A stretch of 32,000 nt of DNA from Candidatus Saccharimonadota bacterium. GTDB lineage: Bacteria > Patescibacteriota > Gracilibacteria > BD1-5 > UBA6164. A program made the position numbers and the translations under genes. Positions 5,014 to 26,647 of this stretch are shown one piece after another. The stretch lies in contig CP042461.1 of assembly GCA_004563595.2 (NCBI GenBank), forward strand, positions 180,001-212,000. Direction: 5' to 3'. Under the pieces are notes generated by a model. It worked only from the letters and a program-made list of their open reading frames with translations. It did not search any database and was not told the DNA's origin. The stretch's first letter is position 1. Each line of letters begins with the position of its first letter.

Positions 5014-7863
5014 TTATTTTATAGGGGTTAAAAAGTTTCAAAGTTCTGAATAATGAAAAATAAAATCAATTATTTTAATATCATTCACGTTAAAATCTAT
5101 AATTTGTCCTTTTTGCATAGTTATTCATATATGTTTGTCACCATAGTTCGTTTTAAATTCAATGGTTTCATTTTCAGGTTTGTAGCTAATGCTTATTTCT
5201 TCCTTACCAAGTGTATTACTAGTGGTATTGATAATATGCTCGATTGCTTCAATATTGTTTAAGATGCTTGATAATGTTTCTTTCAGTGACTCAAGAGGGA
5301 CATCTCATACAATGTATACAGAATTTCATGAAAGTAAATATGTATTTTGTTCTTTTGCCTTTAGATCTAATAGTTTAAAATCTATATCTGAGAAACTATG
5401 AGAAGATGCATATGTATAATCAGAATTGAGGACTCAGCTATATTTTATGGTTTTTCAATTTTTATTAATGTTCATTCAAAACTGAACTCAAGATATATAA
5501 ATATCATAATCAGTACTATTACTTTCCTGAGTCATACGAATATTATTGTATATAATAGAGAAGTAATCATCTATTTTTGTAAAATCTCAGTTGGTTCAGA
5601 GTAACTTGTTTCTTTTAAAATATTTTGTAAATTTATCCTCCGTTCATATATCGGGTTCATTACTACCTCCTATTATGGGCTGCGGTTGTTTCTTAGATTC
5701 TATAATAAAATTATTGAGAAAAAACTTTTTAAAGTCATATTTATCTTTTTCAGAACTCTGAGCTGCTTTGTATTTTTCTTCTAGGGACTCTTTCATATCA
5801 TTCAGATCATAAGATCATTTTTTTTCTTCCCATTCACCTTTTTCATTGATAAATGTAATGGTATTTATTTTATTTCAGTCATATGGATGAAGGAGAAAAG
5901 AAAATGTTTCCTTTCCTATATTTAAATTATTTATTTTATAACATTCATATTCTCAAAAAATATTTCAGGTTGTATCTTCAGTTTCTTCAATCTCAGGATT
6001 TTGACAGTAGTTATAATTTTTTAATTCAATATGTGTATTCATAAGTAAAAGTCATTGGAAGTTTGAGAGAAAAATGAGCGCTTTATCTTTACTGAGTTTT
6101 TCTGCATCAGTTTTCCCATTATCTAGAATAGGGTCGTTCCCTCCAAACCTAGAATCGTATTTTATAGTATATGCCTTATAGTCACTGAGAGCTAGGAAAT
6201 ATTCATCAAATATTTTTTGCAATTCTATATATTCATTTCTGAGAGTTTTTTCGTTATTTTTTTCAGGATCGAGAATATTTTTATTGGTATTATAAAAGGA
6301 TATAAGTTTTATAATATTTTTTTCTAACAGTATATAGTTCTCGTAAGTATTGTTTTGTAAACTTACAGTTTTTAATAATCATTCCTTGGTTCTTTCCTTT
6401 TCAAAGAAATTGTTTCTTATTATATACGTGAAGTTTCGTAAAATTTTAGAATTGATAAGAAGTCAAGTATGTAAAATAGTAAGGTTATTTGTATCATAAT
6501 AGGTTTCGCTAATGTTTACATAATTGTTAAAGAAAAGTATGAGTTCCTTTGCATTTGTATCTTTTAAGTCAGTTATAAGGATTTGTTCCAAGAAGAAGAG
6601 AAGAGAACTATTTGGTTTCTTATTTTCATCTTCATCATACTTTTTTATAAATGTATTGAGCTGGCTATATAAGTTATTTGATTGCTTAAAGTCATATGAC
6701 AAGAAAGTATTTTTGAGAGAGAGGATAGAAGGAGATATTGAGGATGCTTTTTTCTTGTTTAATTGTAAATATAAATGAGAAAAATTTAGGAGATGAGTGT
6801 TATCTTCATTTGTTGTGAATAATACATTTTTATAATAAAAATATATTATTCACAACATTTTTTTATATTCAGCTGTATTATTTTTTTTCAGATCGTTCAT
6901 AGTCTCTGAAATAAAATTGATAGATTCATTTACTTCTTCTTTTTTGTTTATAATTTCATGTAAGCTTTTGAGTATAAGGTTTTCATTATATATTTGTTTT
7001 TTTTCATTATTTAAAAATAATTCATAATATTTTTTTATAAATATTTCTCCTGGAAATGGTGAAAAAATAGCATCAGATAAATATTGTATTTCTTGAGAAC
7101 TTTTTTGGTATTCCAGTAATATATAATGAAAAGTGTCTTTTAAAAAATTATACTCAACCTCGTTAGAAGAAAATGATTGAAGAAAAAGAGGGTTTATATT
7201 GTTTTCTCATGTAATAAGAGGTTCATTAAAATATGTCAGAGGGAAGCTTTGAGAGATTTTGAATAAGTCAGCATTTAGTAAAAATCTATTCCATTTTGGT
7301 TTAATAGTAATATATGTATGAGGGTACAAATCAAGAGATGAAGCTGGAGTATTTGTTTCTGTATTGATAAGTGAAAGTTGTAATTTTGTGTTGATTGAAA
7401 AAATAACAACTTTTTTTGGGTTGAATGAATTCACAAGGAAGATTCATGGTCATGAGTTTTTTATCTGGAATCAACCTCAAGAAATTATGTATTTTTTGTG
7501 TAATTCATTCAAGTGGAGTAAATAGATTCCAGATTTTAATTTTAAATGAGTTATAGCTCAAGTTAATGTTTTTGTATAATCTCAACTGGAGTATATAGTA
7601 TCTGCGAGTGAAAGCTTCTCTGCAAGAATATTTATATTTTTTGATGAAGTTGTAATTTTTTTTAAAGATCAAGTTTGATCTAGAACTTGAAGGTCATAGA
7701 GTCATATCTCTATATCTTGTGAACTTATTTCTTCAATTTTAGAATAGTCTGAGGAAATAAAGCTCAGAGATATAAGACCTGATCAGAGGATGATAACAAT
7801 AATTACAAATATGATTTTTGATAAAAAATTCACTGCTTGATATATTAAAATGTAATAGTACAT
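5014..7863 (-). CDS. large hypothetical protein, 949 aa, N-terminal TM anchor, Asn/Lys/Ile-rich, no recognisable domain
   Basis: A single frame is open from ATG 7863 to TAA 5014 once TGA is read as Gly. Track fragments 6463..6702(-) and 7207..7434(-) are in this same frame. The N-terminus is MYYYILIYQAVNFLSKIIFVIIVIILGSGLISL. Confidence 0.75.
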
Positions 7864-7928
7864 ATTTTAGGTCTCACTCTAACCTTATTTTGTTTTTTGT
7901 AAAGAAACTTTGATATTTTTATTTGAGC

Positions 7929-8993
7929 TTAGTCATATCTGATATTTTTACTTTTATCTTGTTGAAAAATATCTAAAATTTTTGTTATTATTTGTTGATT
8001 TTTAAGCAAAAGTCCAATTTCTCTATTGAAATCAAGACTATAGTTTGAAAAATTAATACTTCATATATAGAGGTATTTATTATCAACTAGAATCATCTTT
8101 GCATGCATTTTTATTTTTTGTAATGGAACTATATCAATTCATCCTTCTTGAAGCCTTTTTATATCATTTATATCATTCTTCCATGAAGATTCTGATATGA
8201 TAGCTGATATCTTGACTCCTTCTCAAGCTTTTTTAAGGAGAAGTTTTTCAAGGTTTTCATCTTTGAAATATTGAAAATATATTTTTATATCTTTTTGAGC
8301 ATTATTGATTAATAAGTGGAGTTTATTTCTTGAATAATTTGGGCTTAAAATAAGATTCGAATCATATATATTCTGTTTTATTCATTTAAAATCTGACTGA
8401 AATATTTCTTCTAAAACAGAGACTATTTTTTTATCTTTTGTAAAAATAAAAAAATCTCTATTGAAGTTAAATGTTGAATAGCTGAGGTTTCAAGTTGAAA
8501 TAATAGCTTCATTATCTATTAATAGAAGTTTTGAATGATTGAGTGAATAATTGCTTCATTTTGACCAAACAACATTTATCTTGTTTTTCTTTAAAAAATC
8601 AAAAGTTTTATTGTTAATATTTGTTGCCTTATATGGATTTTTTTCTAAAATTACTTGGACATTAACACCTCTTTTTTGAGCCTTTTTTAAGCTTTCTTTT
8701 ATTTGTTTTTCTGTGAGAATATAGACTTCAATAAGAACATGATTTTGAGCAGTATCTATTTTATCTAGGATGTAAGTGAGTACTTGAGGGTTAGGGGTAT
8801 GTGATATAGACGTGTTTTTTAGCGTTCTTATATCTGAGAGTTGAAAATTTTGAACATTGGACTCTACTTGTTTATTTTGATTTTGTAACTCTTTGCTATT
8901 TTCATAAAATTTATGATATTCTCATCAAAAAAAATATGAGAATATACTGATAAATAGTACTCAAAAAATTATCAGGAAATATCTTTTGATCAT
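7929..8993 (-). CDS. phospholipase D / cardiolipin synthase-like protein with two HKD motifs, 354 aa, N-terminal TM
   Basis: First HKD motif: NHSKLLLIDNEAIISTGNLS. Second: MHAKMILVDNKYLYIGSINFS. The N-terminus MIKRYFLIIFGVLFISIFSYFF is hydrophobic. Confidence 0.85.
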
Positions 8994-9033
8994 AGGGTTT
9001 TCTATATACTAAATCTTTTAAAGTCTAAAATTA

Positions 9034-10140
9034 TTATCCAAATAGTTTTTCAAATACTCATCAACTATTTACATTTATCTTTTTTTCTTTTGCTATTTCT
9101 TCATAAAAATTTCTTTCTTTTTTTCCAAGTTTTTTTGGTATTTTTATTTCTATATCTATGAATAAATCTCCTTTTGCTTCTGATTCTATATGTTTTACTC
9201 AGTCAGCATTTACTCTTATTCTAGTTCCGTGAGAAGTTCATGGTTTAATATCAAGAATTCTTTTTCAAATAACGGGAATTGATATTTCTTTTTTTGTTCA
9301 AAGTATTGCTTCAATAACGTCAATTTCAACTTTATAATATAGATTTACTCCATCTCTTGTAAGTCATTTCTCTTCAAGGCTAATTTGAAATTTTACAAAT
9401 AAGTCTCAGCTGGCCTTTGTTCATACTCAATCATTTCATTCTCATGTAAGTTTTATGATCATACCATTATCAATTCATGCGGGGATATCAAGCTCAATAT
9501 CTTTTGTGATTTTTGTTCTTTTTATACCATCACATGTCGAACAAGTACTTTCGAAACTTTCTCATGATCAACTACATGTTTTACATGTTCATGCTTGTTG
9601 GATATTTCAAAAAATACTTTGAGTAGTATATGTTACTTTTCAACTTCCATGACAGGTACCACATGATTTTTTTCATTTTCATCATTCCCCATGACAAGTT
9701 TCACATGATTCAAGTTTTGAGAAACTTATTTTTTCTTTTCCTCAATAAATACTTGTTTTTAAGTTGATGACTAGATGATATTCTAGGTCTTCTCATTTGA
9801 ACTCTGTTCTTGCTTTTCATCATCTTCCACCTCAAAATCATCCACCAAAAAATGATTCAAATATATCACCAAGATCTACATCTACTCCCCCTGAAAAACC
9901 ACCTCAAAATGGATTTCCTCATGCAGCAGATCATGTACTGCCATATGTATCATACTGTTGTCTTTTTCCATCGTCAGAAAGAGTAGAGTACGCTTCATTT
10001 ATTTCTTTGAATTTTTTTTCTGCAGTTTTATCCCCATTATTTCTATCAGGATGATACTTCATTGCGAGTTTTCTATATGCTTTTTTTATTTCTTCTTTTG
10101 TTGCTGTTTTATCTAATCATAAAGTATCGTATAGGTTCAT
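9034..10140 (-). CDS. dnaJ: molecular chaperone DnaJ, 368 aa
   Basis: J domain: [32 protein letters not shown]. It is followed by a Gly/Phe region and four zinc-finger repeats (CETCHGEG, CGTCHGSG, CKTCSGSG, CSTCDG). Several of the motif Gly are TGA. Confidence 0.93.
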
Positions 10141-10279
10141 TTTTAGCTATTAGTGGTTAGATATTATAAAATATCAAGAATAAATATTGAGAGGATTTTA
10201 TAGGGTTTTCCTTTTTTGTAAAGAGGGTTTTTGTTGAGATTATATATCATGTAAGTTATTTTATATCAGGATAATCTAA

Positions 10280-10380: not shown

Positions 10381-12552
10381 ATGAAAAAAATAATAAAAAA
10401 TAGTTTTTGATTCACGCTTGTAGAATTAATAGTAGTAATTACAATAATTGCGATTTTATGAACAATAGCATTTATATCACTACAGTGATATAGTAAAAAC
10501 GCAAGAGATTCTGTGAGAATCGCAGATGTACAATCTTTGGTAAAAAGTTTAAGTCTATTTGAGATAAAAACTTGAATTTTTCCTGAACCATCAAACTGAA
10601 CTTCTGTAAGTTTTTCGTGATGAGAAATATGGACACAATGAACTATTTGAGATAGTGTAATAGTCAATATTGGTCAATTAAGTAAAAAAGTGCTTGATCC
10701 ATCAACGGAATCTGAATATACATACTCAAGGTTGAACACAAAGAAGGAATACCAAATTGCAGCAGTGATTGAAGGTGATCTATGAATAAACTCATCACCT
10801 CATTTTTCTTCAGTAACTCATGCTGCATGAACAAATCCTTGAATTGCTTATGTGAAATGAAACTATAATTGAATGTTAGCAAAAGTTCAAACATGAGCAG
10901 TAACATATGTGTTAGCTGTTCCAACTATTATATCATGAGATATATCAGTTACTGATATTATTAATTTACAGCAATCAAATAAGCTTGTTTATAATGGAAA
11001 AAATAACCTTCCAGCAAGTTATGAGTCTTCTAAGTTTAAAGTCGATGGGGGATGATTTGTTTTTAATCCTTCAGATATAGTAGTCTATATTTGATCTACA
11101 AGTACTCTAACAGCAGTTGATAATCAACTCAGTTTAATGAGTAATACTCAAAATGTATATAGCGGAACTGACGTGTCAGGCTTAGATAGTCAGATTGATA
11201 AACTCGTTGATATAAGTGTTGATCTGAATAGTCCTACAGATGAAGCAAAAGAGTTTGCGGGTTATATAGTTAAAAATAGTGTAAACCCTGGGGTTGAAAT
11301 AAATATTAGTACTTCTTCTCAAGAATCTGTTATATGTTGAGGATGAGACTATAATAGTGCATATAATGTAAATTTATGATACTTTAATGGAAGAACTATT
11401 CCAAATAGAGCAGCGTTTGTCGCATTAAAACCAGATGGTTCTATTGTTGCTTGGTGAGATGATTCGTATGGATGATCATGAGCACTTGCACCAAGTGGTA
11501 GTGGTTATGAAAAAATATATTCATCTGAAAAAGCATTTGCAGCCTTGAAATCAGATGGAACAATTTCTGTATGGTGAGATGCTGATAATGGTTGAACCGG
11601 AGGTCCGATTGATAACTGATATGTAGATATCTCTTCAACATTAAATGCCTTTGCCGCGTTAAAAGATGATGGAACAATTTCTGTATGGTGACCGTCTTGA
11701 ACGAGTGCTTGAGATCAAGCAAATGCTCCAAGTACATGAGATTATACGAAAATATATGCAGGTAAATATACGTTTTCAGCCTTAAAAGATGATGGGACTG
11801 TATACGCATGGTGAAGTTACGTTACAAATTGACCAGTAGCCGGAGTTTGATATACTTCCATTTCTGCTAGTCAATCAGCCTTTGCAGGATTACATGAAGA
11901 TGGGAGTATATCAACGTGGTGAGAAGGAGGCTATGGTTGAATTTGATGACCTATAGATAATTGATATATATCAATAGCTTCAACACAGAGAGCATTTGCT
12001 GCTTTAAAATCTGATGGGAGCTTATCAGCTTGGTGAGCTGATTCATATGGATGAACAGGAACTTTGGTTGGTCCATTTACTTCTGTTTCTGCAACAGAAA
12101 ATGCATTTGCTGCATTGAAAACAGATGGAAGTATTGAAACATGGTGAGGAAGTGGGAACTGATGAACTGGAGGACCGGTATGAACATGATATACAAAAAT
12201 ATATGCAAATAATTATGGTTTTGCTGCCTTAAAAAATGATGGAACTATATATGCATGGTGAAGTAGTAGTTATGGATGAATATGAGATGTAGCATGAACA
12301 TGATATGTTAAAATATTTGGGAATAATTATGGTTTTGTTGCATTAAGGTCTGATGGAACTGTATATGGATGGGGAAGTGGAGGAAGCGGATATCCTGTAG
12401 ACAGCTGATACATAAATATCATGGCTACAGCAAATGCTTTTGCTGCAATAAAGGATGATGGAAGTATGAGCTTATGGGGATCTCAATATTATTGAGCAAC
12501 AGGAGGGCCCAATGATTCATGATATACCTCACTTAACTGAACGTGCAAGTAA
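10381..12552 (+). CDS. type IV pilin-like protein (A-type N-module) with C-terminal 10-repeat RCC1-like beta-propeller, 723 aa
   Basis: N-terminus MKKIIKNSFG|FTLVELIVVITIIAILGTIAFISLQGYSKNARDS is a prepilin cleavage/methylation motif. The C-terminus has 10 repeats of AFAALKxDGSIxxWG. Track ORF 11137..11340(+) is in frame. Length is a multiple of 3 from ATG to TAA. Confidence 0.88.
11410..12549 (+). repeat. 10 tandem coding repeats of about 38 aa (consensus GY..I.S...AFAALK.DGSI..WG....GG.G)
   Basis: The periodic gcatttgc(t/a)gc..taaaa..gatgg....tggtga is visible directly in the nucleotides. The WG dipeptide is mostly TGG-TGA. Confidence 0.85.
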
Positions 12553-12582: not shown

Positions 12583-14145
12583 ATGAAAAAAATAATAAAA
12601 AATAGACTTTGATTTACATTAGTAGAACTTATTGTTGTTATTACCATTTTAGCAATTCTTGGTACTATTGCATTTATAAGTTTGCAATGATATAGTAAGG
12701 ATGCAAGAGATAGTAAAAGAATAAGCGACATAGCTAATATTGAAATATCTTTAGAGTTATTTTCGCTTGCAACATGAAAATATCCACTTCCGGATAATCC
12801 ACAAACTGTTATATATAGTTGATCTATAGTATTATGGAATCAATGAACTGTTTGATGAAATGTAGCAACAAACTTGTCAAAAAATTTGTCAGAAATACCA
12901 TTAGATCCATTATATGGAACTGAGTATGTATATTCAACACTTGAAAATAGAAAAGAATATGAATTAATGAGTGTATATGAGTGAGGTAATATAGGAGGAA
13001 ACTGATTATTAGATAACACGTATGCAGCTACGAGTCCAACAGTAAAAATAGTTGGTACTTATAATGGGCTTTTTATTCATACTTCAAATTATATAATACC
13101 ATCTCCAAGTATTATAACATCAGAAACACTCCCACTTGCGTTTGATGCACAGTCAATACAGTCACAAGTGGTAACAGGATGAACGAATGTACCAAATATA
13201 TGAACAAGCAAAGTACAAGTATCAACAGGGGCATTATCAAATATTACACTGTCAGCTTATATATGAAGTGCAGATGCAAACTCATATAAATATGAATTAT
13301 TATCTCTATATAAAACAATACAATGAGCGTATACAGGTTCAAGTTTAATAGGAAATTGAATATATAAAGCGTTGTTTGATCAAACAAGCAATGATGAAAA
13401 GGTAGTTTTTATAGATTCAGTGTTAAATATTACCAGAAGCTCACCAATAAATATAATTACATGGTCAGAGTTAGACTTAAATTGTGATGCAGATGATATC
13501 CCTATTTGAGATCAAGTATGGGCATGATGTAATTCTACATTATGACTCTGATTAGAATGGGGGCAACTCGACTGAGATTTATGAACAAATAATTATAATT
13601 GAGGATGAAGTTTTTGTTTTAATTATGAATGAGGTGCAGCGACATGTATTAAATGAGATATAACAATGGCATCAAATACAAAAGCAAATACTTGGTATAC
13701 TGGAACAAATTCAAACTGAGATACTGAGTTTGCGAGTATATGGTGAAAATCTTATACATGGGAAAATTCAGGTAGCGCATGTGCTCCGGGCTTTCATGTC
13801 CCAACAGATGCTGAACTAGAAATTCTTGAAACAACACTAAAATGAGGAGTTAATTGTAGAAATTCAACAAATTGAGAATTGTGTGCTTGATTAGGGTGGG
13901 CATGACATAACGCTCAATCTACAACTAATAACATGGCTCAAGCCCTTAAAATTCCTTTATCAGTTAATCGTCTTACGAACTTAATTGATTCTTACAATAG
14001 AGGAAATTATGCACATCTATGGTCCTCAACTGAAGGCTCTAGTGGTACTGCGTATGGGAGATCGCTAAAATGGGATACTACGACAATTAACCGTCTCAAT
14101 TGGAGTACAGATTATGCTTTTAATGTCCGTTGTATACATGATTAA
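12583..14145 (+). CDS. type IV pilin-like protein (B-type N-module) with C-terminal FISUMP (Fibrobacter succinogenes major paralogous) domain, 520 aa
   Basis: N-terminus MKKIIKNRLG|FTLVELIVVITILAILGTIAFISLQGYSKDARDS. The C-terminus reads IGDQVWAGCNS..YTWENSGSACAPGFHVPTDAELEILE..HLWSSTE..AFNVRCIHD*, the TIGR02145-type pattern. I checked every codon and found no in-frame TAA/TAG. It lies 30 nt after gene 1, so it is probably co-transcribed. Confidence 0.85.
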
Positions 14146-14238
14146 AATACAAGATATATCTTCTCTTTTCAGTATATTTCATTTACTTAGTATGTAAAAA
14201 ATAATATTATTTAGTTTATTATAATTCCCTCTCATCTT
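14145..14238 (+). promoter_or_regulatory. conserved upstream element of pilin gene 3
   Basis: Near-identical to 16531-16636: aaatacaagatatatc...ttttcagtatat..catttac.tagtatgtaaaaaa.aatattatttagtttattataa. Confidence 0.4.
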
Positions 14239-16440
14239 ATGAAAAAATTAAAGAAAAACAGATTTTGATTCACCCTTGTAGAATTAATAGTAGTGATTAC
14301 TATCCTTGCTATCTTGTGAACTATCGCATTTATATCACTTCAATGATATAGTAAAAGTGCAAGAGATTCTGTAAGAATATCAGACGTTGAAAATATAGTA
14401 ACAAGTTTGACTCTTTATGAAGTACAAAAATGAGCGTTCCCTGTTCCATCAGATAATGTTGAAGTAACTTATTTGGGATGAGAAGTATGGACTCAATGAA
14501 CTATTGGAGACAGTGTACTTACGAACCTTGCTCAAATAAGTAATAAAATAGTAGATCCTTCAAGTGGATCAGAATATACTTATTCTAGATTGAATACAAA
14601 AAAAGAATACCAGGTAGCTGCGGTATTTGAGTGATGACTTGCTTTTGAAAGTGATAATAACATTCTTTCTTCAGCTCACGCAGCGTGAAATGTAGCATGA
14701 ACAGCGTACGTAAAATGAAACTATAATGGGATGTTAGCAAAAGTAAGTACATGATGAACATTGTATACTCTTGCTGTTCCGACTTTAATATCATGAGATA
14801 TAACAGTGACAAGTCTTACTGCATTACAAGCTGCAAATAAACTTGTGTACAAAGGTACTGCTAATTTGCCGGCAAGTTACGAATCTTCTAATTTTAGAGT
14901 TGAGGGAGGAGGTTTTGTATTTAATCCATCAGATATAGTAGTGTATACATGATCAATGAATACTCTATCAGATATTACAAACAGAGTTCAGTTAGTTGAG
15001 AGCTTACAAAATGTGTATGACGGTACAGATTTAGCAACCTTAAATCCAGATATTCAGACACTTGTGGACACAATAATTAATCCAGGATATGCTTCAGCAG
15101 AAGCAGAATTATTATCGAGTAATATAATTAAAAATAGTATTAATCCTAGTATAAATGTAAGCATAGCATCTGAAGCAACTTTTAGATGTGATGGAGGTGA
15201 TTATAATACAGCATATAATAATTATTGATGATATTATAGTGCATATACTATGCCTAATACAGGAGCTTTTGCAGCACTTAAAAGTGATGGTACTATATTT
15301 GCATGGTGAGATTCAAGTAAATGATGAACATGAGCACCGGTTGACGATTGATATAAAAAAATAGCATCTTCAGCTGAGTCTTTTGCAGCCTTAAAAGATG
15401 ATGGAAGCATTACTGTATGGTGAAATGGAGGTGCTGGATCATGAGCTTTGGCTCCTAGTGAGAGTTGATTCATCAAAATATCTTCAACATCAAACTCTTT
15501 TGCCGCATTAAAGGAAGATGGGACAATTTTTGTATGGTGATTACCATGAGCAAGTGCTGGAGATCAAGCAGAGGCTCCAACCGGTAGTGATTACAAGAAT
15601 ATATATGCGGCAAATTATACTTTTTCAGCTTTAAATAACGATGGAACAGTATATTCATGGTGAAGTTATGTTACTAATGGTCCTGTAGCTGGAGTATGAT
15701 ATACTTCTATATCTTCTAGCTCATCAGCATTTGCTTGATTAAAAAGTGATGGGACTATATTTGCATGGTGAGATGGAGGATATTGATGAATTTGAAATGT
15801 TACATGAACATGATATGTTTCAATTTCTTCAACTACGAGAGCATTTGCAGCCTTAAAAGATGATGGATCAATTTTTACATGGTGAGATGGAAGCTATTGA
15901 TGAACATGAAGTACTTCATGAGCTATATCAGGGACATGATATACTAAAATATTCTCTACACAGTGAGCATTTGCAGCTCTAAAGGATGATGGAAGTATTA
16001 CTGCGTGGTGAACAAGTGGATGGTGATGAGATAATACAGAAGTTCCAAGTTGAACATGATATATAAATATTTATTCGAATTCAAGCGCATTTGCAGCATT
16101 ACATGGTGATAATGAAACTATCTATGGTTGGGGCTTTGCTAGTACAGGGGGAGTATGAGCTGTCGCGGGGAGTTGATATACTAATGTTTATGCTGCTCAT
16201 TATTGATTTGCGGCATTAAAACCTGATGGAACCATAAAAGTATGGTGAAATATGGATTCAAATAAACCATCAGAATCAGAAACATGATTTACAAAAATAA
16301 TGTCAACAGAGAAAGCATTTGTGGCAATGAAGTCTGATGGAAGTATTTATGCTTGGTGAAATAGTGCAGATGGAGGTGATAATAATGATGCACCAAATGA
16401 TATATGATATGTGTCTATTAATTGAGTTTGTAACCAATAG
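14239..16440 (+). CDS. type IV pilin-like protein (A-type N-module) with C-terminal 10-repeat beta-propeller, 733 aa
   Basis: N-terminus MKKLKKNRFG|FTLVELIVVITILAILGTIAFISLQGYSKSARDS, followed by 10 AFAALKxDGSIxxWG repeats. Track ORF 14956..15228(+) is in frame. Confidence 0.88.
15265..16437 (+). repeat. 10 tandem coding repeats of about 38-42 aa (propeller blades) in pilin gene 3
   Basis: Same consensus as 11410-12549. Confidence 0.85.
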
Positions 16441-16530: not shown

Positions 16531-16636
16531 AAATACAAGATATATCTTTTTGCTTTTATTGTCTATTTTCAGTATATTCCATTTACCTAGTATGTAAAAA
16601 ACAATATTATTTAGTTTATTATAACCTCTTCCTGTT
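16531..16636 (+). promoter_or_regulatory. conserved upstream element of pilin gene 4
   Basis: Copy of 14145-14238 with a short insertion. It follows the terminator, so gene 4 is probably its own transcription unit. Confidence 0.4.
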
Positions 16637-18811
16637 ATGAAAAAGTTAATGAAAAGAAGTTTTTGATTCACACTTGTAGAATTAATAGTAGTGATTACTA
16701 TTCTTGCTATCTTGTGAACTATAGCATTTATATCACTACAATGATATAGTAAAAATGCAAGAGATTCTGCCAGAATATCGGATATAGAAAATATCGTAAC
16801 TAGTTTCACTCTTTATGAAGTACAGAGATGATCTTTTCCCGTTCCATCAGATGGAGTAGAAATAACTTATTTAGGATGATCAGTATGGACTCAATGAACT
16901 ATTTGAGAAAGTGTTATTACCAATCTTTCTCAAATGAGTAAAAAACCAATAGATCCATTCAGTTCTTCTGAATATACCTATTCAAGACTCAATAGTAAAA
17001 AAGAATATCAAATTGCAGCAGTGTTAGAGTGATGACTTGCTTTTGAGAGTAATAATACTTTTTCTTCAGCACACGCTGCATGAAACTTAGCATGAACAGC
17101 ATATGTAAAATGAAACTATAACGGGATGTTAGCAAAGGTAAATACATGATGAATATTGTATACACTTGCTGTTCCAACTTTAATATCATGAGATATAACA
17201 GTGACAAGTCTTACTGCACTACAAGCTGCAAATAAACTTGTATATAAAGGTGCTGCTAACTTACCAGCAAGTTATGAATCATCAAACTTCAAAGTTGATG
17301 GAGGAGGGTTTGTGTTTAATCCATCAGATATTGTAGTATATACATGATCAATGGGTACATTATCTGATATTACAAATAGAGTTCAATTAGTTGAGGCTTT
17401 AAAAAATGTTTATATAGATACTGACGCCTCGGATTTAAGTCCAGATATTCAAACGCTTACTAGTACAGCTATTAATTCAGAATATGCTACGTCTGAGGCT
17501 GAATTATTAGCAAGTAATATAATTAAAAATAGTATCAACCCTAGTATTGATGTAACTATCGTATCAGAAACAAAATTTTTATGTAACGGAGCTGACCATA
17601 GTACAGCTTATAATGCAAATGGATGATTTTTTAACGTTTCAAATTTCCCGAACACGCAAGCATTTGCTGCTCTAAAGAACGATGGAAGTATCTCTGTTTG
17701 GTGAGATGATTCTTATGGTTGATCATGAGCACTTGCACCAAGTGATAACTGATATATAAAAGTAACTTCGAATGAGACAGCATTTGCTGCTTTAAAGGGA
17801 GATGGGACAATTACTGTATGGTGAAATGCAACGAATGGGTGATCTGGAGGTCCAAGTGGGGGCTGATTTGTAGATGTGTTTTCTTCAAGTGCAGCTTTTG
17901 CAGCTTTAAAAGATGATTGATCGATACAAGTATGGTGAGATGCTGGGCCATGAGTTCAAGAAGTAGCTTTGAGTGATACTGAATATACAAAAATATATTC
18001 ATCTAATTATTCATTTGCTGCTTTAAAAGAAGATGGGACTATATATGCATGGTGAAGTTATCCTGGAATTTGAGATGTTCCTGGGGTATCATATCTATCT
18101 GTTTCTGCAACTACCTCAGCTTTTGCTGGATTAAAATCGGATGGAAGTATTTATTCGTGGGGACTTTCTGGTCACTGATGATCATGAGCACCAGCAGCTA
18201 CTTGATATACATCAATTTCAGCGACTGAAAGAGCTTTTGCAGCATTAAATAGTGATGGAAGTATTTTTGTTTGGTGAGATGATAGTTATTGATGAACATG
18301 AGCTATAGACCCAAGTTGATATACAAATGTATATGCTAATTTTAGAGCTTTTGCGGCAACAAAAACGGATGGAAGTATTACCGTATGGTGAAGTAGTAGT
18401 AATTGATGAAGTTTAGGGTTCTCGGGTACGTGAACAATTAAAATTGCATCAAATCGTTATGCATTTGCTGCTCTAAACAGTAATGGAACTATATATTCTT
18501 GGTGAGCTTGAGGTAATGGATGAATTTGAAGTGTAACGGGAACATGATATGTAGATATATATTCTAGTGATAATGGATTTGCGGCTATGAAATCTGATGG
18601 GAGCATATATAGTTGGTGATGATCATCTTCATCTTGATACCCAGTTGATAGTTGATATACAAAGATATTTTCTACTGCATGAGCTTTTGCTGCAATGAAG
18701 TCAGATGGAAGTATAACAGCTTGGTGATCAAGTTGGTATTGAGGAACATGAGCTGAATGAATTCCCATAGATGATTGATACGTCTCAATTAATTGAGTAT
18801 GTCTTAATTAG
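16637..18811 (+). CDS. type IV pilin-like protein (A-type N-module) with C-terminal 10-repeat beta-propeller, 724 aa
   Basis: N-terminus MKKLMKRSFG|FTLVELIVVITILAILGTIAFISLQGYSKNARDS, followed by 10 repeats. Track ORF 17351..17626(+) is in frame. Confidence 0.88.
17660..18808 (+). repeat. 10 tandem coding repeats (propeller blades) in pilin gene 4
   Basis: Same consensus as 11410-12549. Confidence 0.85.
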
Positions 18812-19570: not shown

Positions 19571-22500
19571 ATGTTGAGAAAAGTTCTATTGAGCATATTG
19601 ATCGGTACTATCTTATTAAATTGAGGGCCTATTGTAAATGCGGCATGAGATGAGCCAAGTTATACAAAACTAACTGTGTTAGATTTACATACCTTCAATG
19701 AATATAGGTATAGAATTACTGATAAGTACTTTAATCTCAGAAACAAGTTTGAGATTGATGGAACTATAAATAGTAAAATTTCTGGAGAGATATTAGACCT
19801 TGCAAGGGAAGGGTACAACTATCTTCCGGATAATTTATCGAATAAAAACTTATATAATAAATTAAAAACATCTATAGAGAGAGGGAAAAAATTTCCAGAT
19901 AATGAATCAAATTATACAGCAATCGTTGTGGCTATTCAAAGCTATTTAGAAAAGGCAGATATTCAAAAAATTCAATGAAAAATTGAAACAGTAACAAAAG
20001 AATGAAATGCCCCTTTTTCTGCTACGTTAAGATGAAGAGTGAGTGATCCATCGGGAACAAAAATAGAGTCATATAACTACGTATGGTGGATTGATGTAGC
20101 ATGAAAGAGAAAAATTATATGAAAAAAGCCATCTATTAACTATATTTTTAAGGAAGAATGAAATTTTTCTGTATTTTTAGATGTTATTTCTAGTCACAAA
20201 AATACAAAATGATACACAGATGTGCTTCCTTTTAGATCAAGAGCTGATATTAAAGTAAAAGAAAAAATTGCATCAGTTATTATCAAAGTTAACTCTGATC
20301 GTTTAAGGCAAAAAGATGAATTAAAATTTACTCCAGACGAAGCAAGGTTTGGTTTACTTTTTGATGCTACCAGTTCAACCCCAGCGTCAGGAGGGAAATT
20401 TACAAATACATCATGGGATTTTTGAAATGGTTTGGAAAGGGAAAATTCATGAGATCCAAAAGTAGAAAGAGTTATATATGCAAAAGAGGGAGAATACACC
20501 GTTATATTGAAACTAAGAACAAATGAGAATAGAACTGCAGAGAGAAAGTTTATAGTTTCTATTCATGATCCTATTGCAACTATTAAAAGTTCTCAAGAAG
20601 ATTGATTCTTATGAGATAAGTTTACTTTTTCTGCAAAACCTTCATGAAATGATGATGATTTGAGCTACTCTTGGGAGATAGTTGATATAGAAAATGATAG
20701 TATTATTTTTAGAAAAACAGGGAGTTTATTTACCTATAGTTTTAAGGATAAGTGAAAATATAATGTTAAACTTAGAGTAACTGAGCCTTCGTGAGAAGAG
20801 GATATTGATACACAGATTATACATATTAATTCTCAAGCCCCGGTTGCTGATTTTAAAAATTCAAAACCATTTCCACATAAACCAAATACAGTTTTACTTG
20901 ATGCAACAAAGAGTTATGATCCAGATTTTTCTGATGATTGAAAGTTACAATTCTCATGGATTATTAATGGAGAAAGAAGAGTTTTAGATAGGCCAAACTT
21001 TAATGGTTCTATCTGATATTATACGTTTGATTCTATATGAGATCAAAGTGTTGTATTAGAGGTAGTTGATCCAGATAAAATACCATCTCAAAAAACAGAA
21101 AAAGTAAGGGTAGATTCTATTTTATCTGTTGATTTATTTGCTTTTCCAAGAGTAACTACTAGGGAAAATACTATTAGATTCGTTGCTCAATCCCCAGAAG
21201 CAAGATTTTATGAATGGGATTTTGGAGATGGAGAAAAAAAATGATCAAAGGAAGCAGAAATATCACACAAATATAAAAAAAGTTGAGTATTTACTGTAAA
21301 AATAAAGGTAATTGATAAAGAGGATAGAGAAAATACATTTCAAAAAAATGTATATATTTGAGAATCAAATAGTCCATTTGCATTTATAAATATTCAAAAC
21401 TGAGTGAGTCAGGAAGTGGCATATAAGCAGTGAGTATGTAATGGTGTATGAGCATATATTGTTGATAGAGTAAACATCACGAGGTTTTCGTGAGAAGAGA
21501 GTATTGATATTACTGGAAAAACTTCATGAATTTCATATTCGTGGAAGCTGTGAAGAGATCAGTATTTTTCATCAAGAGATTTTCCTCAAAAATTTGATGA
21601 ACTTGGTTGTGTTCCGTTGAAATTAACTGTAAAAAGTGATCAAAACTGAAGAACTCATAGTAGAACTGTATGGCTAAAAGTTGAAAATATCAAACCAACG
21701 TTATCATCCGTGAATGTACAAATTACAGATGAATCTACAGATCCTGTGATTGTAAAAGTAAGTGCTTTATGATCAAAAGATCTTGATGGAGTGATTCAAT
21801 CATACTTATGGTATTATTATACAGATATTGATTCTGAACCACAAGATTTTAGAGCAACTAAATCTTCAGCGACTACCTTTGTTTTACCAAAAATAACATG
21901 AAACTATTATTTTGTAGTGGTTATGAAAGATAATAATGAAGCAAGAGTCACCTCAGAAGAAGTAACGGGGTCAAAATATTTTGTAACACTTGCCTGAGAT
22001 AATATAAATACTCCTCTAGTAAAGTTAAGTGTGAATGACTCTTCTGTATCTATTTGAGATGAAGTCGTATTTACAGCAAAAGTTGAGAATATCCTCGGTC
22101 ATGATTTATCAAAAAAAGTAGAATATTCTTGGGACTTGGATGGAGATGGGTTTTATGAAAAAAAAGGTTCTCAAGCTACGATAACTCATAAATTTGAAAT
22201 CTCTTGAGAGTTACATCCAAAAGTAAAAGTAAAATACAAAGGCTTTAGTAGTACAAAAAATCTTACTGTAAATGTATCAAATATATTGAAACCAGATTTT
22301 TGATACATTTCAATTTGAAATAAATTCATTATTTTTGATAAGAGTATTTGAAAATATGATACAATTCAATGGAACTTAGGTGATGAAACAAAAGTTACAG
22401 ATAAGAATGTTTTCACTCATACATATGATGATGGGAAAGCATCTCATATGGTAGAATTAAAAATATCTGATGGGACAAAAGTAAAAACTATACAAATAAA

Positions 22501-25084: not shown

Positions 25085-26647
25085 TTATCTAATGTATAAA
25101 GATATTCTTTCTCATGCATAATTCCATACTGGAGATGTATCATTAAAATTAGCGTATAAATTTAAGGTGACATAATCATAATCATAAGCATTTCCATGAT
25201 TATAATATCAAGACCTTCCATTTCAAAATAATTTTTCCTTTGGTATAGAATTTCCAACATTATCTCAAGCTGAAGTCCAATTACTCATGTAATTTATTCA
25301 ATAAAAGTCCCAGTCATCAGATCAAGTAGGAGTATTGTCTCTATTCTCTTGCCAGAGTCAATGGTCATTATACCATCAAGCATCTCTATATATATTGATC
25401 CATTCATATTTTGAATTTATATTTGTAACATCTATTAATCAAGGGGTATATTGAACTCCATTCTCTTGAGCTTGTAGGAGTACATTTGATCAAATTATTA
25501 ATAATAATTCTTTAGTTCCGTCCGTGTAGTCTGTAATAGCTTTTGTGAAATCTGAATCTAAATCAAATCAGCTTCATGTATTACTAGAAATATCTAAAGT
25601 ACCTATTATATTTGTGGAATTATTTCAAATTAATTCCCACCCTCCTCAATTTGTAGTCATATTACAGTATACGCTAAATCAAGTTCAATTATCTTGTGGA
25701 TCAACTGTATATGTTCCATCTCAAGTTGAATCTCAATTGTTTAATATATCTTTACAACTTCATGGAAGTGTTTCTATGACTATCTCATTTGTATTACTTG
25801 GGGTACTATTATTCACTACAACCGAACCAGCAAATGCTATTTTTTCATCATCTGTAGTTTGAGCTAATAGTGTTTTGTAGATTCATTTATTTGCTAAGCT
25901 TGAACCTGTATAAGCTCACTTTAATACTTCATATACAGCCAACTTTTCTACTGTAGATGAGTCTCCATCGATAGATCAATTATATACAGATAATGATAAA
26001 CTGGATAATGCTCCTGTTGATACTGAAATTTTTGCAATTCACATATTTGGAATATTCGTTCCACCATTGGTTACTTGTGATTGTATAGAGTCTGAATCAA
26101 GCACTCATGGTAATGTATCTGCTGTTATAATACTGGGTGTTGGGATTATATAATTGGCTGTTTTGATGAAAAGTCAGTTATATGTTCCATCCATTCTTAC
26201 AGTTGTATTTGTTGCTGCATAGGTGGTATTTAATAGTCCATTACTTGATACATTACTTCATTCATATAAACTCATAAGCTCATATTCTTTTTTATTTTCA
26301 AGAGTAGAATATACATATTCTGTTCCATAGAGTGGATCAGTTGGTATTTTTGATAAATTCCTTGATAGGTTGGTTATAACTTGATTTCAGATCGTTCATT
26401 GATTCCATAGTGTAGATCAACTATATGTAACGTCTTGTGAATTATCTGGAAGTGGATATTTTCATGTTGCCAGAGAGAAAAGCTCCAGTGATATCTTGAT
26501 GTTATTTATATCACTTACTCTCGTACTATCTCTTGCATCTTCAGAGTATCATTGAAGACTTATAAAAGCTATGGTTCATAAAATAGCTAATATTGTAATT
26601 ACTACTATTAACTCAACCAGTGTAAAAGCTTGTTTGTGTGTGTTCAT
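25085..26647 (-). CDS. type IV pilin-like protein (B-type N-module) with C-terminal fibrinogen-like YCxxxxxGGGW domain, 520 aa
   Basis: The minus-strand translation starts MNTHKQA|FTLVELIVVITILAILGTIAFISLQGYSEDARDS. The first 270 aa or so are clearly paralogous to 12583-14145. They are followed by SCKDILNNGDSTGDGTYTVDPQDNGTGFSVYCNMTTNGGGWELI. Length is a multiple of 3. Confidence 0.85.

What the first reader, a model, noticed from the sequence alone, without database searches (positions are those of the whole stretch)
11335..12552. Ten-blade, 38-aa-period RCC1-like repeat domain bracketed by two conserved cysteines, at the C-terminus of three pilins
Each A-type pilin ends with exactly 10 repeats of about 38-42 aa, by my count. 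The spans are 11335-12552, 15187-16440 and 17582-18811. The repeat consensus is GY..I.S...AFAALK.DGSI..WG....GG.G.

The motif resembles RCC1/RCC1_2 propeller blades, but the period is shorter than the classical 50-60 aa.

In all three proteins a single Cys sits just before repeat 1 (SVICGGGDY, TFRCDGGDY, KFLCNGADH). Another sits 2-3 residues from the C-terminus (NGTCK*, NGVCNQ*, NGVCLN*). I infer a disulfide that clamps the first and last blades. This would be an enlarged analogue of the C-terminal disulfide loop (D-region) of classical type IV pilins, here enclosing a whole propeller.
Basis: partly seen in the sequence, partly recalled or inferred. Interest (0 to 1): 0.7.

Follow-up and report, generated by a model that had tools for sequence, protein, structure and literature searches.

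The report
Ten-blade propeller head on pilins
Three neighbouring genes of a Gracilibacteria bacterium (which reads TGA as glycine) encode pilus subunits that each carry a large ten-repeat propeller "head", probably locked shut by one disulfide bond and probably used to grip host cells; the head is a widespread ready-made module rather than a pilin invention.

Summary
The window comes from Candidatus Gracilibacteria bacterium 28_42_T64.

Three 723-733 aa proteins (A1, A2, A3) share three parts:
- a prepilin signal (G|FTLVE),
- a Cys-free carrier of about 310 aa,
- a C-terminal array of exactly 10 units of 35-42 aa, bracketed by the only two Cys in each protein.

The repeats belong to the RCC1/BLIP-II superfamily. 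The short period arises because each blade has three strands, as in BLIP-II, the closest solved structure.

A confident AlphaFold model (pLDDT 90, pTM 0.89), the sharply conserved count of 10 units, and a conserved extra "strand 1" after unit 10 all point to one Velcro-closed ten-bladed ring. I could not inspect coordinates, so neither the blade count nor the Cys-Cys distance was measured.

The two Cys co-occur strongly across 116 modules (odds ratio 67, p = 2e-14). The 23 modules with both Cys include secreted non-pilin proteins. A disulfide is therefore likely, but it belongs to the propeller module. It is not an enlarged pilin D-region.

Best reading: these are modular type IV pilins that display a binding propeller. 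This is a new variant of known kinds and of moderate interest.

The parts
10381..12552 (+). Gene A1: modular type IV pilin, 723 aa under code 25 (TGA = Gly)
   Evidence: ORF under code 25. Pfam N_methyl 28.6 bits and RCC1_2 112.8 bits. P0001 is the same protein in a code-4 translation.
10381..10473 (+). A1 class III (prepilin) signal and hydrophobic alpha1-N: MKKIIKNSFG|FTLVELIVVITIIAILGTIAF, with Gly at -1, Phe at +1 and Glu at +5
   Evidence: PF07963 N_methyl over residues 6-31, above cutoff. TIGR02532, 22.6 bits against a cutoff of 16.3. The motif is read directly from the sequence.
10381..11334 (+). A1 carrier: a pseudopilin-like (GspG-like) head plus a low-confidence, partly helical stalk, with no Cys. 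A1, A2, A3, B1 and C all share it.
   Evidence: alignment of the five pilins; partial TIGR01710 match; on the homologous A3 carrier, a long N-terminal helix at residues 13-64 followed by a beta-sheet, with the stalk at pLDDT 30-66.
11335..11337 (+). A1 N-side Cys (C319), 3 residues before the 'DY' of the N-cap motif C-G-x-D-Y-x-x-A-x-N-x-x-G-G
11338..12480 (+). A1 ten repeat units (aa 320-700, each 35-41 aa). Each unit is a loop, strand 1 (GYxxI), strand 2 (AFAALK) and strand 3 (GSIxxWG). Unit 1 has the N-cap in place of the loop and strand 1.
   Evidence: The strand assignment comes from the A3 models.
12481..12549 (+). A1 C-terminal tail (aa 701-723), a partial 11th unit made of a loop and strand 1 ('GYTSL'). 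It is the inferred Velcro strand that completes blade 1. The C-side Cys C722 is at 12544-12546.
   Evidence: aligns to unit columns; tail strand at residues 408-411 of the A3 module; the tail is conserved across modules.
14239..16440 (+). Gene A2: modular pilin, 733 aa. Propeller module at 15187-16440. Cys C317 at 15187-15189 and C731 at 16429-16431.
   Evidence: P0003 is the same protein in a code-4 translation.
16637..18811 (+). Gene A3: modular pilin, 724 aa. Propeller module at 17582-18811. Cys C316 at 17582-17584 and C722 at 18800-18802. This is the protein that was modelled.
   Evidence: Identical to NCBI protein P0002 from Candidatus Gracilibacteria bacterium. Models.
12583..14145 (+). 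Gene B1: same carrier with a different C-terminal module (FISUMP / Fib_succ_major). Context showing that the modules are interchangeable.
   Evidence: PF09603, 51 bits, and T2SSG, 24.6 bits. TIGR02145..
25085..26647 (-). Gene C: same carrier with a fibrinogen-like YCDxxxxGGGW module.
   Evidence: PF00147. NF040941, 60 bits..

Best explanation
A1, A2 and A3 are modular type IV pilins. These are pilin-type subunits made of a carrier with a grafted effector module.

Shown:
- a class III prepilin signal with Gly-1, Phe+1 and Glu+5;
- a Cys-free pseudopilin-like carrier of about 310 aa, shared with two sister pilins that bear other modules;
- a C-terminal module of about 405 aa belonging to the RCC1/BLIP-II superfamily.

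The module consists of an N-terminal cap (C-G-x-D-Y-S-S-A-x-N-x-Y-G-G...P-N), ten units of about 38 aa that each form a three-stranded blade as in BLIP-II, and one extra 'strand 1' after unit 10.

Inferred:
- The ten blades form one closed ring. The C-terminal strand becomes the innermost strand of blade 1, which is a Velcro closure.
- The two Cys form a disulfide that staples the N-cap to the Velcro strand and so locks the ring in an exposed extracellular protein. One Cys lies just before the cap and the other just after the Velcro strand.
- The propeller is a ligand-binding head presented on a type IV filament, most likely as a low-abundance or tip subunit. The three paralogues, together with the FISUMP and fibrinogen-like sister pilins, would give this host-dependent bacterium a repertoire of attachment specificities.

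The Cys-stapled ten-unit propeller is a pre-existing, widely distributed module that was grafted onto the pilin carrier.
For: Code and genes.

Pilin signal: N_methyl and TIGR02532 score above their cutoffs.

Shared carrier with swapped modules. Dozens of Gracilibacteria pilins share the N-terminal ~40% but carry LRR, BspA, LamG, SBBP, InlB, FISUMP or fibrinogen-like modules.

Superfamily: RCC1_2 at 93-113 bits. BLIP-II is the best PDB match by sequence (E 7e-6 for a single sequence, 8e-16 for the profile, aligned unit for unit) and by fold (Foldseek E 2e-13 to 6e-12).

Three strands per unit, unit 1 lacking strand 1, and a tail strand: DSSP.

Single rigid body: module-only model with pLDDT 90.1 and pTM 0.89.

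Ten as the closed unit:
- Units per array peak at 10 (77 arrays) and 9 (41), with almost none at 11-13, no peak at 5 or 15, and a few at 18-20.
- Only 2 of 74 modules continue into a full 11th unit. The tail-strand motif occurs in 46% of tails against 3% of controls.
- There is no unit i / i+5 similarity.
- In idealised geometry, 7 blades of a 10-ring superpose on a 7-ring at rmsd 5.4-7.3 A. The observed value is 6.4-7.5 A. Two 5-rings give at least 8.1 A.

Disulfide:
- Each window protein has exactly two Cys.
- N-Cys and C-Cys co-occur: [[82,4],[7,23]], odds ratio 67, p = 2e-14. Both are absent together in P0008 and in the discoidin-fused forms.
- In the full-length model the two Cys sit in two 4-residue strands (315-318 and 720-723) whose antiparallel register would place C316 opposite C722.

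Binding-head idea:
- The modular-pilin concept, including adhesion by a grafted module, is established (PMC8179133).
- Paralogue variation and all indels concentrate in the inter-blade loops: 37% identical against 55% in strands, p = 8e-4.
- Gracilibacteria and their relatives are host-attached and use type IV pili (PMC11452946, PMC8080830).
Against: - No coordinates could be read. The single ten-bladed ring and the Cys-Cys proximity are inferred, not measured.
- Confidence at the N-side Cys is low (pLDDT below 50 in the full-length model, about 62 in the module model). In the module model that segment is coil.
- The Fisher test treats modules as independent although they are related.
- No pilus assembly genes lie in the window or next to the orthologues. 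Incorporation into a filament, tip location, and any ligand are untested.
- Loop-biased variation is typical of any propeller and does not prove binding.
- A2's eighth unit and unit 4 in all three proteins are irregular.
Confidence: 0.6

Rival explanations
1. The ten units fold as two five-bladed propellers, or as another non-ring arrangement, rather than one ten-bladed ring.
For: No coordinates were seen. Known members of the superfamily are seven-bladed, so a jump to ten is large. Units 4 and 5 are irregular in length, at 39-41 and 36 aa.
Against: - pTM is 0.89 for the whole 417 aa, with no pLDDT dip at the unit 5/6 boundary.
- Array sizes show no peak at 5 or 15 units.
- There is only one cap and one tail strand per ten units, and units 2-10 each own three strands.
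- There is no i / i+5 similarity.
- The idealised 5+2 geometry never reached the observed rmsd to BLIP-II.
- Giant-virus predicted proteins match about 405-466 columns at TMq 0.68-0.71, which suggests a shared whole-module fold.
Confidence: 0.1
2. The Cys pair is a pilin-specific adaptation: an enlarged D-region disulfide loop that has come to enclose a propeller.
For: Classical type IV pilins end in a disulfide-bonded loop (established knowledge). Here the pair also lies in the C-terminal part of a pilin.
Against: - The 23 modules with both Cys include non-pilin proteins in which the module directly follows an N-terminal hydrophobic leader, or sits inside other architectures.
- The carrier pilin domain has no Cys and is separated from the module by a stalk of about 130 aa.
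- Pilin-fused orthologues exist with neither Cys, such as P0008.
- The sister pilins B1 and C have module-specific Cys patterns at the same junction.
Confidence: 0.05
3. The proteins are not pilus-tip adhesins. The class III signal would serve only to export and anchor them at the cell surface, in a short pseudopilus or a 'bindosome'-like assembly, as in archaeal sugar-binding proteins with prepilin signals. The propeller would then capture substrates or host-derived molecules.
For: The carrier resembles T2SS pseudopilin GspG rather than a long-pilus major pilin (T2SSG for B1 and C). No pilus machinery is adjacent. A head of about 45 kDa cannot be accommodated at every position of a filament (inference). 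The bindosome precedent rests on my own knowledge and was not checked here.
Against: Modular pilins with bulky modules have been shown to be filament-borne adhesins (PilB of S. sanguinis, PMC8179133). Type IV pili are expressed in Gracilibacteria and are needed for host attachment in related Saccharibacteria.
Confidence: 0.2
4. The propeller acts like BLIP-II as a tight protein inhibitor of a host enzyme, for example a beta-lactamase- or PBP-like cell-wall enzyme, rather than as an adhesin.
For: BLIP-II is the closest solved relative by sequence and by fold.
Against: Identity is only 24-26%, ring size differs, and TMt is about 0.57. The module family is huge (25,171 cluster representatives) and is fused to discoidin domains, kinases, peptidases and giant surface proteins. 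That argues for a generic binding scaffold.
Confidence: 0.05
5. The two Cys are conserved for a reason other than an intramolecular disulfide, such as metal binding, intermolecular cross-links between subunits, or free thiols.
For: The distance was not measured. pLDDT at the N-side Cys is low. A thioredoxin-fold gene lies next to one orthologue, which could mean reduction or isomerisation instead.
Against: The two Cys co-occur strictly, there are exactly two per protein, and both sit at the ring-closure point. These are extracellular proteins.
Confidence: 0.1

Closest known systems
BLIP-II (beta-lactamase inhibitor protein II, Streptomyces exfoliatus; PDB 1JTD, 3QHY, 3QI0)
   Same: Same superfamily (RCC1/BLIP-II). 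The repeat period is the same, about 38-40 aa, and aligns unit for unit (profile E 8e-16). Blades have three strands. It is a secreted bacterial protein. It is the best fold match in the PDB.
   Different: BLIP-II has seven blades and about 270 aa. The module here has ten units and about 405 aa. TMt is only 0.56-0.58 with rmsd 6.4-7.5 A, so ring geometry differs. The N-cap motif, the Cys staple and the pilin fusion are not BLIP-II features as far as these searches show. Identity is 24-26%.
Eukaryotic RCC1-like domains (RCC1, HERC2 RLDs, UVR8)
   Same: Homologous repeats: Pfam RCC1_2 hits, and Foldseek E about 1e-10 to 1e-12. The conserved 'WG' and Gly-rich loop motifs are shared.
   Different: These domains have seven four-stranded blades of 51-68 aa. 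The Pfam whole-domain model WD40_RLD scores 61-78 bits against a cutoff of 150. TM is at most 0.45.
Modular type IV pilins (PilB and PilC of Streptococcus sanguinis; Raynaud et al. 2021, PMC8179133)
   Same: An N-terminal IPR012902 prepilin motif and pilin module, with a grafted non-pilus domain at the C-terminus. That paper's Dataset S1 already lists IPR012902-PF13540/IPR000408 (RCC1) architectures as single entries and shows a Gracilibacteria example of another architecture.
   Different: PilB carries a vWA module joined by a short loop. Here the carrier includes an extra stalk of about 130 aa, and the module is a ten-unit propeller. No function has been tested for any pilin-RCC1 fusion.
D-region disulfide loop of classical type IV pilins
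   Same: A disulfide near the C-terminus of a pilin-type protein.
   Different: The D-region lies inside the pilin globular head. Here the head has no Cys, and the pair brackets a separate module that also exists outside pilins.
Sortilin / Vps10 ten-bladed propeller
   Same: Probably the same blade number. In 2013 sortilin was described as the only known ten-bladed propeller (PMC3797127).
   Different: It belongs to a different lineage (Asp-box, four-stranded blades). It does not appear among the top 50 fold matches.
Hemopexin-type propellers closed by a disulfide between first and last blades
   Same: The principle of locking a propeller ring with a disulfide at the closure point. This rests on my own knowledge and was not tested here.
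   Different: Four blades and an unrelated sequence family.

Membership tests
Type IV pilin / pseudopilin (class III signal peptide proteins) | N-terminal prepilin cleavage/methylation motif: short polar leader ending in Gly, Phe at +1, Glu at +5, and about 20 hydrophobic residues | tested here: met
   PF07963 N_methyl scores 28.6-32.1 bits (cutoff 21.2) in all five pilins. TIGR02532 scores 22.6-25 bits (cutoff 16.3). The sequence reads MKKIIKNSFG|FTLVELIVV....
Type IV pilin / pseudopilin (class III signal peptide proteins) | Processing by a prepilin peptidase and assembly into a filament by a type IV filament machinery | not testable with these tools
   No PilD, PilB, PilC or similar genes lie in the window or beside the orthologues. 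The rest of the genome was not examined.
T2SS major pseudopilin GspG (TIGR01710 equivalog) | Full-length match above the curated cutoff | tested here: not met
   A1 scores 31.4 bits against a cutoff of 88.85, and only residues 10-78 match. B1 and C reach the Pfam T2SSG domain cutoff at 24.6 and 23 bits against 21, so the carrier is GspG-like but not an equivalog.
Modular pilin (sensu Raynaud et al. 2021) | An IPR012902 motif plus an additional domain not specific to type IV pilus biology | tested here: met
   N_methyl plus RCC1_2 in one polypeptide. The definition is quoted. The same architecture class is listed in their Dataset S1.
RCC1/BLIP-II superfamily | RCC1-type repeat sequence signature | tested here: met
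   PF13540 RCC1_2 scores 93-113 bits against a cutoff of 22. The profile matches BLIP-II, HERC2, RCC1 and UVR8 chains.
RCC1-like domain (RLD, seven-bladed) | Seven blades of 51-68 aa, and a whole-domain model match | tested here: not met
   The proteins have ten units of 35-42 aa. PF25390 WD40_RLD scores 61-78 bits against a cutoff of 150.
BLIP-II-type propeller | Three-stranded blades of about 40 aa | tested here: met
   DSSP shows three main strands per unit in two models. The profile aligns unit for unit to BLIP-II.
BLIP-II-type propeller | Seven blades, and beta-lactamase inhibition | tested here: not met
   The unit count is ten. TMt is 0.56-0.58 with rmsd about 7 A. Inhibition is not testable here.
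Classical pilin D-region | A disulfide within the pilin globular domain that delimits its C-terminal loop | tested here: not met
   The carrier (residues 1 to about 315) has no Cys. The Cys pair travels with the propeller module into non-pilin proteins.
Closed (Velcro) beta-propeller with ten blades | A single ring in which a terminal strand completes the first or last blade | tested here: inconclusive
   Supporting evidence: pTM 0.89; unit 1 has two strands and the tail provides a strand in the strand-1 register; the count of ten and the tail are conserved; rough geometry fits.
Intramolecular disulfide staple | The two Cys within bonding distance and oxidised | not testable with these tools
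   Only indirect support is available: co-occurrence with odds ratio 67, p = 2e-14; exactly two Cys per protein; both at the closure blade.

The most novel reading that the evidence does not exclude
The module is a previously undescribed architecture within the RCC1/BLIP-II lineage. It would be a ten-bladed ring of three-stranded blades with a dedicated N-cap, a C-terminal Velcro strand and an optional disulfide lock. Gracilibacteria mount it, alongside FISUMP, fibrinogen-like, LRR, LamG and other heads, on one conserved pilin carrier. This would form a cassette system of interchangeable host-recognition heads that sets the host range of these uncultured episymbionts or predators.
Probability: 0.35. 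Interest if true: 0.6.

Novelty: new variant of a known kind. Interest (0 to 1): 0.4.

Why it matters
Gracilibacteria and their relatives are uncultured, host-dependent bacteria. How they recognise and attach to hosts is largely unknown, and type IV pili are the leading candidates.

This window shows one Cys-free pilin carrier bearing at least three kinds of binding head: a ten-unit propeller (three copies), a FISUMP module and a fibrinogen-like module. That gives concrete, expressible candidates for host-recognition proteins.

Structurally, the propeller extends the BLIP-II type of blade from seven to apparently ten blades, with a conserved cap, Velcro strand and Cys closure. No solved structure matches the whole module, yet the family has more than 25,000 cluster representatives. 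One experimental structure would therefore annotate a very large set of bacterial surface proteins.

The case is also a practical reminder that code-25 genomes are invisible to standard ORF calling. Many database copies of these proteins carry Trp where Gly belongs.

Tried and rejected
- Table-11 ORF calling found nothing over the spans. Code 4 (TGA = Trp) was rejected in favour of code 25 because TGA sits in Gly columns and never in Trp columns. Many database homologues are code-4 mistranslations with W for G, so I excluded W-rich sequences from the modelling alignment.
I used the identical NCBI protein P0002 (= A3) and subsequences of retrieved proteins instead.
- I looked for model coordinates to count blades and measure the Cys-Cys distance. 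None are exposed. I fell back on DSSP strings, pTM, Foldseek statistics and a crude idealised-geometry simulation, which is only suggestive.
- The HMM test for the tail strand was too strict for such short fragments (24 of 74) and my first regex was too loose (71 of 74). I replaced both with a tighter motif and a control set.
- I tested whether the array is a duplicated 5+5 block. There is no i / i+5 signal.
- I tested for recent gene conversion between paralogues. DNA repeats are only 60-87% identical.
- I looked for pilus machinery next to the genes here and in three orthologous loci and found none.
- NCBIfam has no specific family for the module.
- Sortilin-type ten-bladed propellers did not appear among the fold matches.
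- The paralogue loop-versus-strand variation was considered as evidence for binding. I keep it only as weak support, because it is generic to propellers.
Full report
**Checking the observation**

Under the standard bacterial code the three spans contain no long ORF. Direct translation shows one frame running through them, interrupted only by TGA at positions where the repeat consensus expects Gly, for example 'W*' for 'WG'.
- In the A1 frame there are 52 TGA codons against one TAA and one TAG.
- When the 30 repeat units are aligned, TGA-encoded positions fall in columns otherwise dominated by Gly (weighted count 605) and never in Trp columns.
- The window therefore uses genetic code 25.
- A3 is identical to an NCBI protein of Candidatus Gracilibacteria bacterium on a 1.34 Mb contig. 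A neighbour on the same contig is named strain 28_42_T64.

Under code 25 the genes are A1 10381-12552 (723 aa), A2 14239-16440 (733 aa) and A3 16637-18811 (724 aa).
- Each protein has ten WG-anchored units of 35-42 aa.
- Each has exactly two Cys, at the quoted motifs.
- After unit 10 each has a tail that aligns as the first 60% of an eleventh unit.
- The repeats are highly significant: Pfam RCC1_2 scores 93-113 bits, and 27 units are also detectable at DNA level at 105-126 nt spacing.

**What the proteins are**

All three start with a class III prepilin signal (MKK..G|FTLVELIVV, with Glu at +5). It scores above the curated cutoffs of PF07963 and TIGR02532.

Residues 1 to about 310 form a carrier that two further pilins in the window also have. 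B1 (12583-14145) ends in a FISUMP / Fib_succ_major module. C (26647-25085, minus strand) ends in a fibrinogen-like GGGWT module.
- The carrier contains no Cys.
- It is GspG-like but is not a GspG equivalog.
- In the full-length AlphaFold model it shows the long N-terminal helix and beta-sheet of a pilin, followed by a low-confidence, partly helical stalk.

A database search found dozens of Gracilibacteria pilins that share only this carrier and end in LRR, BspA, LamG, SBBP, InlB-repeat, FISUMP or fibrinogen-like modules. This is the 'modular pilin' design described by Raynaud et al. 2021 (PMC8179133). Their Dataset S1 already lists prepilin-RCC1 architectures as single entries without discussing them.

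**What the repeat domain is**

By sequence the closest solved structure is BLIP-II, at E 7e-6 for a single sequence and 8e-16 for a 21-sequence profile. About 250 profile positions align to about 250 BLIP-II residues, so the period is the same. By fold BLIP-II is again the best match, followed by UVR8, the HERC2 RLDs, RCC1 and the CRINKLY4 ectodomain.

Both models show three main strands per unit: GYxxI, AFAALK and GSIxxW. BLIP-II's blades are also three-stranded; that property is from my own knowledge. The 'too short' period is therefore the BLIP-II flavour of the RCC1/BLIP-II superfamily, which is recognised as one lineage in PMC3797127 and PMC9218822.

The whole-domain Pfam model for seven-bladed RLDs is not met, at 61-78 bits against a cutoff of 150.

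**One ring of ten, or two of five?**

1. The module-only model is confident and behaves as one rigid body. Its pLDDT is 90.1 and pTM 0.89, with no dip at the unit 5/6 boundary.
2. Units 2-10 each own three strands. Unit 1 has only strands 2 and 3. The tail provides one strand in the strand-1 register (residues 408-411, 'YVSI'). This is the layout of a Velcro closure that brings the C-terminus back to blade 1.
3. Across 257 homologous proteins with very different architectures, array size peaks sharply at 10 (77 arrays) and 9 (41, mostly one missed unit). Almost none have 11-13, there is no peak at 5 or 15, and a few have 18-20, which are tandem modules.
4. Only 2 of 74 ten-unit modules continue into a full eleventh unit. 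A strict strand-1 motif sits at the expected offset in 46% of tails against 3% of control windows, and most other tails show an equivalent hydrophobic strand.
5. Unit i is no more similar to unit i+5 than to any other unit, while each unit keeps its positional identity between paralogues.
6. All seven BLIP-II blades align to the model, but at rmsd 6.4-7.5 A and TMt 0.56-0.58. In a crude idealised model, seven blades of a ten-blade ring give 5.4-7.3 A. Five-plus-two blades from two five-rings never fell below 8.1 A.
7. No PDB chain exceeds TMq 0.41. Two giant-virus predicted 'RCC1' proteins match 405-466 columns at TMq 0.68-0.71. The whole-module fold is therefore not unique to these pilins.

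I put about 0.8 on a single closed ten-bladed ring.

**The cysteine pair**

In full-length pilin orthologues the pair is usually present: P0004, P0006, P0007, P0012, P0014, P0015, P0017, P0019, P0023 and P0075. In P0008 both Cys are missing together.

I scored 116 modules of 9-11 units for a Cys in a window upstream of the cap and a Cys in a window after the tail strand.
- The table is [[82,4],[7,23]], with odds ratio 67 and Fisher p = 2e-14.
- The sequences are related, so the p-value overstates independence. The modules do, however, come from very different proteins.
- The 23 modules with both Cys include non-pilin proteins. In several the module directly follows an N-terminal hydrophobic leader that I read as a signal peptide (P0016, P0184, P0203, P0207, P0210, P0219, P0248). 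In others it sits inside another architecture (P0153, P0179).
- The discoidin-fused 'lipoproteins' of mussel gill symbionts lack both Cys.

In the full-length model the two Cys lie in two four-residue strands (315-318 and 720-723). Pairing them antiparallel in full register would put C316 opposite C722, but pLDDT there is below 50. In the module model the N-side segment is coil with pLDDT about 62.

A disulfide stapling the N-cap to the Velcro strand is therefore likely, at about 0.75, but it was not measured.

The pair is a property of a propeller sub-family that was grafted onto the carrier.
- The carrier has no Cys.
- A stalk of about 130 aa separates the pilin head from the module.
- The first Cys of B1 and C, which aligns at the same junction, belongs to their own modules. 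In C, 'SCKDIL...YCNMTTNGGGW' is the fibrinogen-like pattern.

**How it most likely works**

Shown: the prepilin signal, the shared carrier, interchangeable C-terminal modules, and a BLIP-II-type ten-unit propeller with cap, tail strand and co-varying Cys pair.

Inferred:
- After cleavage at Gly-1, the hydrophobic N-terminal helix inserts the subunit into a type IV filament.
- The bulky 45 kDa head implies a low-abundance or tip position, as argued for other modular pilins (PMC8179133).
- The propeller is a rigid binding platform whose inter-blade loops vary. Loop positions are 37% identical among the three paralogues against 55% in strands, p = 8e-4, and all indels lie in loops.
- The disulfide protects ring closure outside the cell.

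Gracilibacteria and their Absconditabacteria relatives are host-dependent and are thought to attach through type IV pili and large surface proteins (PMC11452946, PMC8080830). A set of pilins with different heads is therefore a plausible host-recognition repertoire.

The main functional rival is surface anchoring without a long pilus, in a pseudopilus or bindosome-like arrangement. I give it about 0.2, because the carrier is GspG-like and no assembly genes are adjacent here or in three orthologous loci. A BLIP-II-like inhibitor role is possible but unsupported.

**Comparison with what is known, and novelty**

Already known:
- modular pilins, including catalogued prepilin-RCC1 architectures;
- RCC1_2 repeats;
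- BLIP-II's three-stranded blades.

Not described in the papers and structures I could search:
- a ten-unit, apparently ten-bladed BLIP-II-type propeller with a conserved N-cap (C-G-x-D-Y-S-S-A-x-N-x-Y-G-G...P-N), a C-terminal Velcro strand and an optional Cys lock;
- its display, in three paralogues, on a Gracilibacteria pilin carrier that also bears other heads.

The module family itself is very large, with 25,171 cluster representatives at E <= 1e-3.

I rate this a new variant of known kinds. It is of moderate interest (0.4), mainly as a concrete handle on host recognition in uncultured episymbionts and as a target for one informative experimental structure.

Noticed in passing
whole window (e.g. 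10381-12552): The genome uses genetic code 25 (TGA = Gly). Table-11 ORF calling yields about 2,700 aa in ORFs of at least 100 aa, against about 15,300 aa when TGA is read through. Many public database copies of these proteins (JGI, ENA, Logan) were translated with code 4 and carry Trp where Gly belongs, for example P0001 and P0003.
   Followed up: yes
window 12583-14145 (+) and 25085-26647 (-): Two further pilins have the same carrier but different heads: B1 with a FISUMP / Fib_succ_major module and C with a fibrinogen-like YCDxxxxGGGW module. C has Ala rather than Gly at the -1 position of the prepilin site (MNTHKQA|FTLVE).
   Followed up: partly
L001 9016-9918 and L002 4074-5024: In two independent contigs, the gene immediately upstream of the Cys-bracketed pilin-propeller orthologue P0017 encodes a 300-316 aa thioredoxin-fold protein. 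A HisKA / response-regulator pair precedes it. It could be a thiol-disulfide oxidoreductase for the Cys pair. It is not present next to the window genes or in L003.
   Followed up: no
window 19571-25054 (+): An 1,827 aa protein lies between the pilin cluster and pilin C. It has an N-terminal hydrophobic leader (apparently a signal peptide), multiple PKD domains (Pfam 115-117 bits), an apparent transmembrane helix near residue 1290, and a long Lys/Glu-rich tail with a motif repeated several times, 'D(V/I)PDWLKGSF'. It is probably a surface protein. The role of the tail repeats is unknown.
   Followed up: partly
window 14157-14224 and 16557-16624: A 68-nt segment upstream of A2 and A3 is 91% identical, and their carriers are 86-89% identical at DNA level. 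A2 and A3 are therefore the most recent duplicates, and the shared segment is probably a promoter or leader. The equivalent region upstream of A1 is only 60% identical.
   Followed up: no
protein P0100: A truncated Gracilibacteria-type pilin has the same carrier followed by canonical long-period RCC1 repeats ('CWGRNEYGQIGDG') instead of the short BLIP-II-type units. Both flavours of the superfamily have therefore been grafted onto this carrier.
   Followed up: no
proteins P0009-P0035: The closest non-pilin relatives of the propeller (45-49% identity) are discoidin (F5/8 type C)-fused 'putative lipoproteins' of Bathymodiolus mussel gill symbionts and uncultured Gammaproteobacteria. Some have two discoidin-propeller modules in tandem, and they lack the Cys pair. 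This suggests horizontal spread of the module among marine host-associated bacteria.
   Followed up: partly
window 7929-9008 (-) and 5014-7866 (-): Upstream of the pilin cluster lie a membrane-anchored double PLD-domain protein (PLDc_2, 145 bits; possibly a phospholipase or cardiolipin-synthase-like enzyme) and a 950 aa protein that I did not search against any family library. Next to them is DnaJ, read from the sequence (9034-10146, minus strand).
   Followed up: partly
BFVD hits A0A5J6VLF8 and A0A481Z8D7: Predicted structures of giant-virus 'RCC1 repeat' proteins (a Megaviridae environmental sample and Pithovirus LCPAC302) match almost the whole module at TMq 0.68-0.71. Large-ring RCC1-type propellers may therefore also exist in nucleocytoplasmic large DNA viruses.
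   Followed up: no
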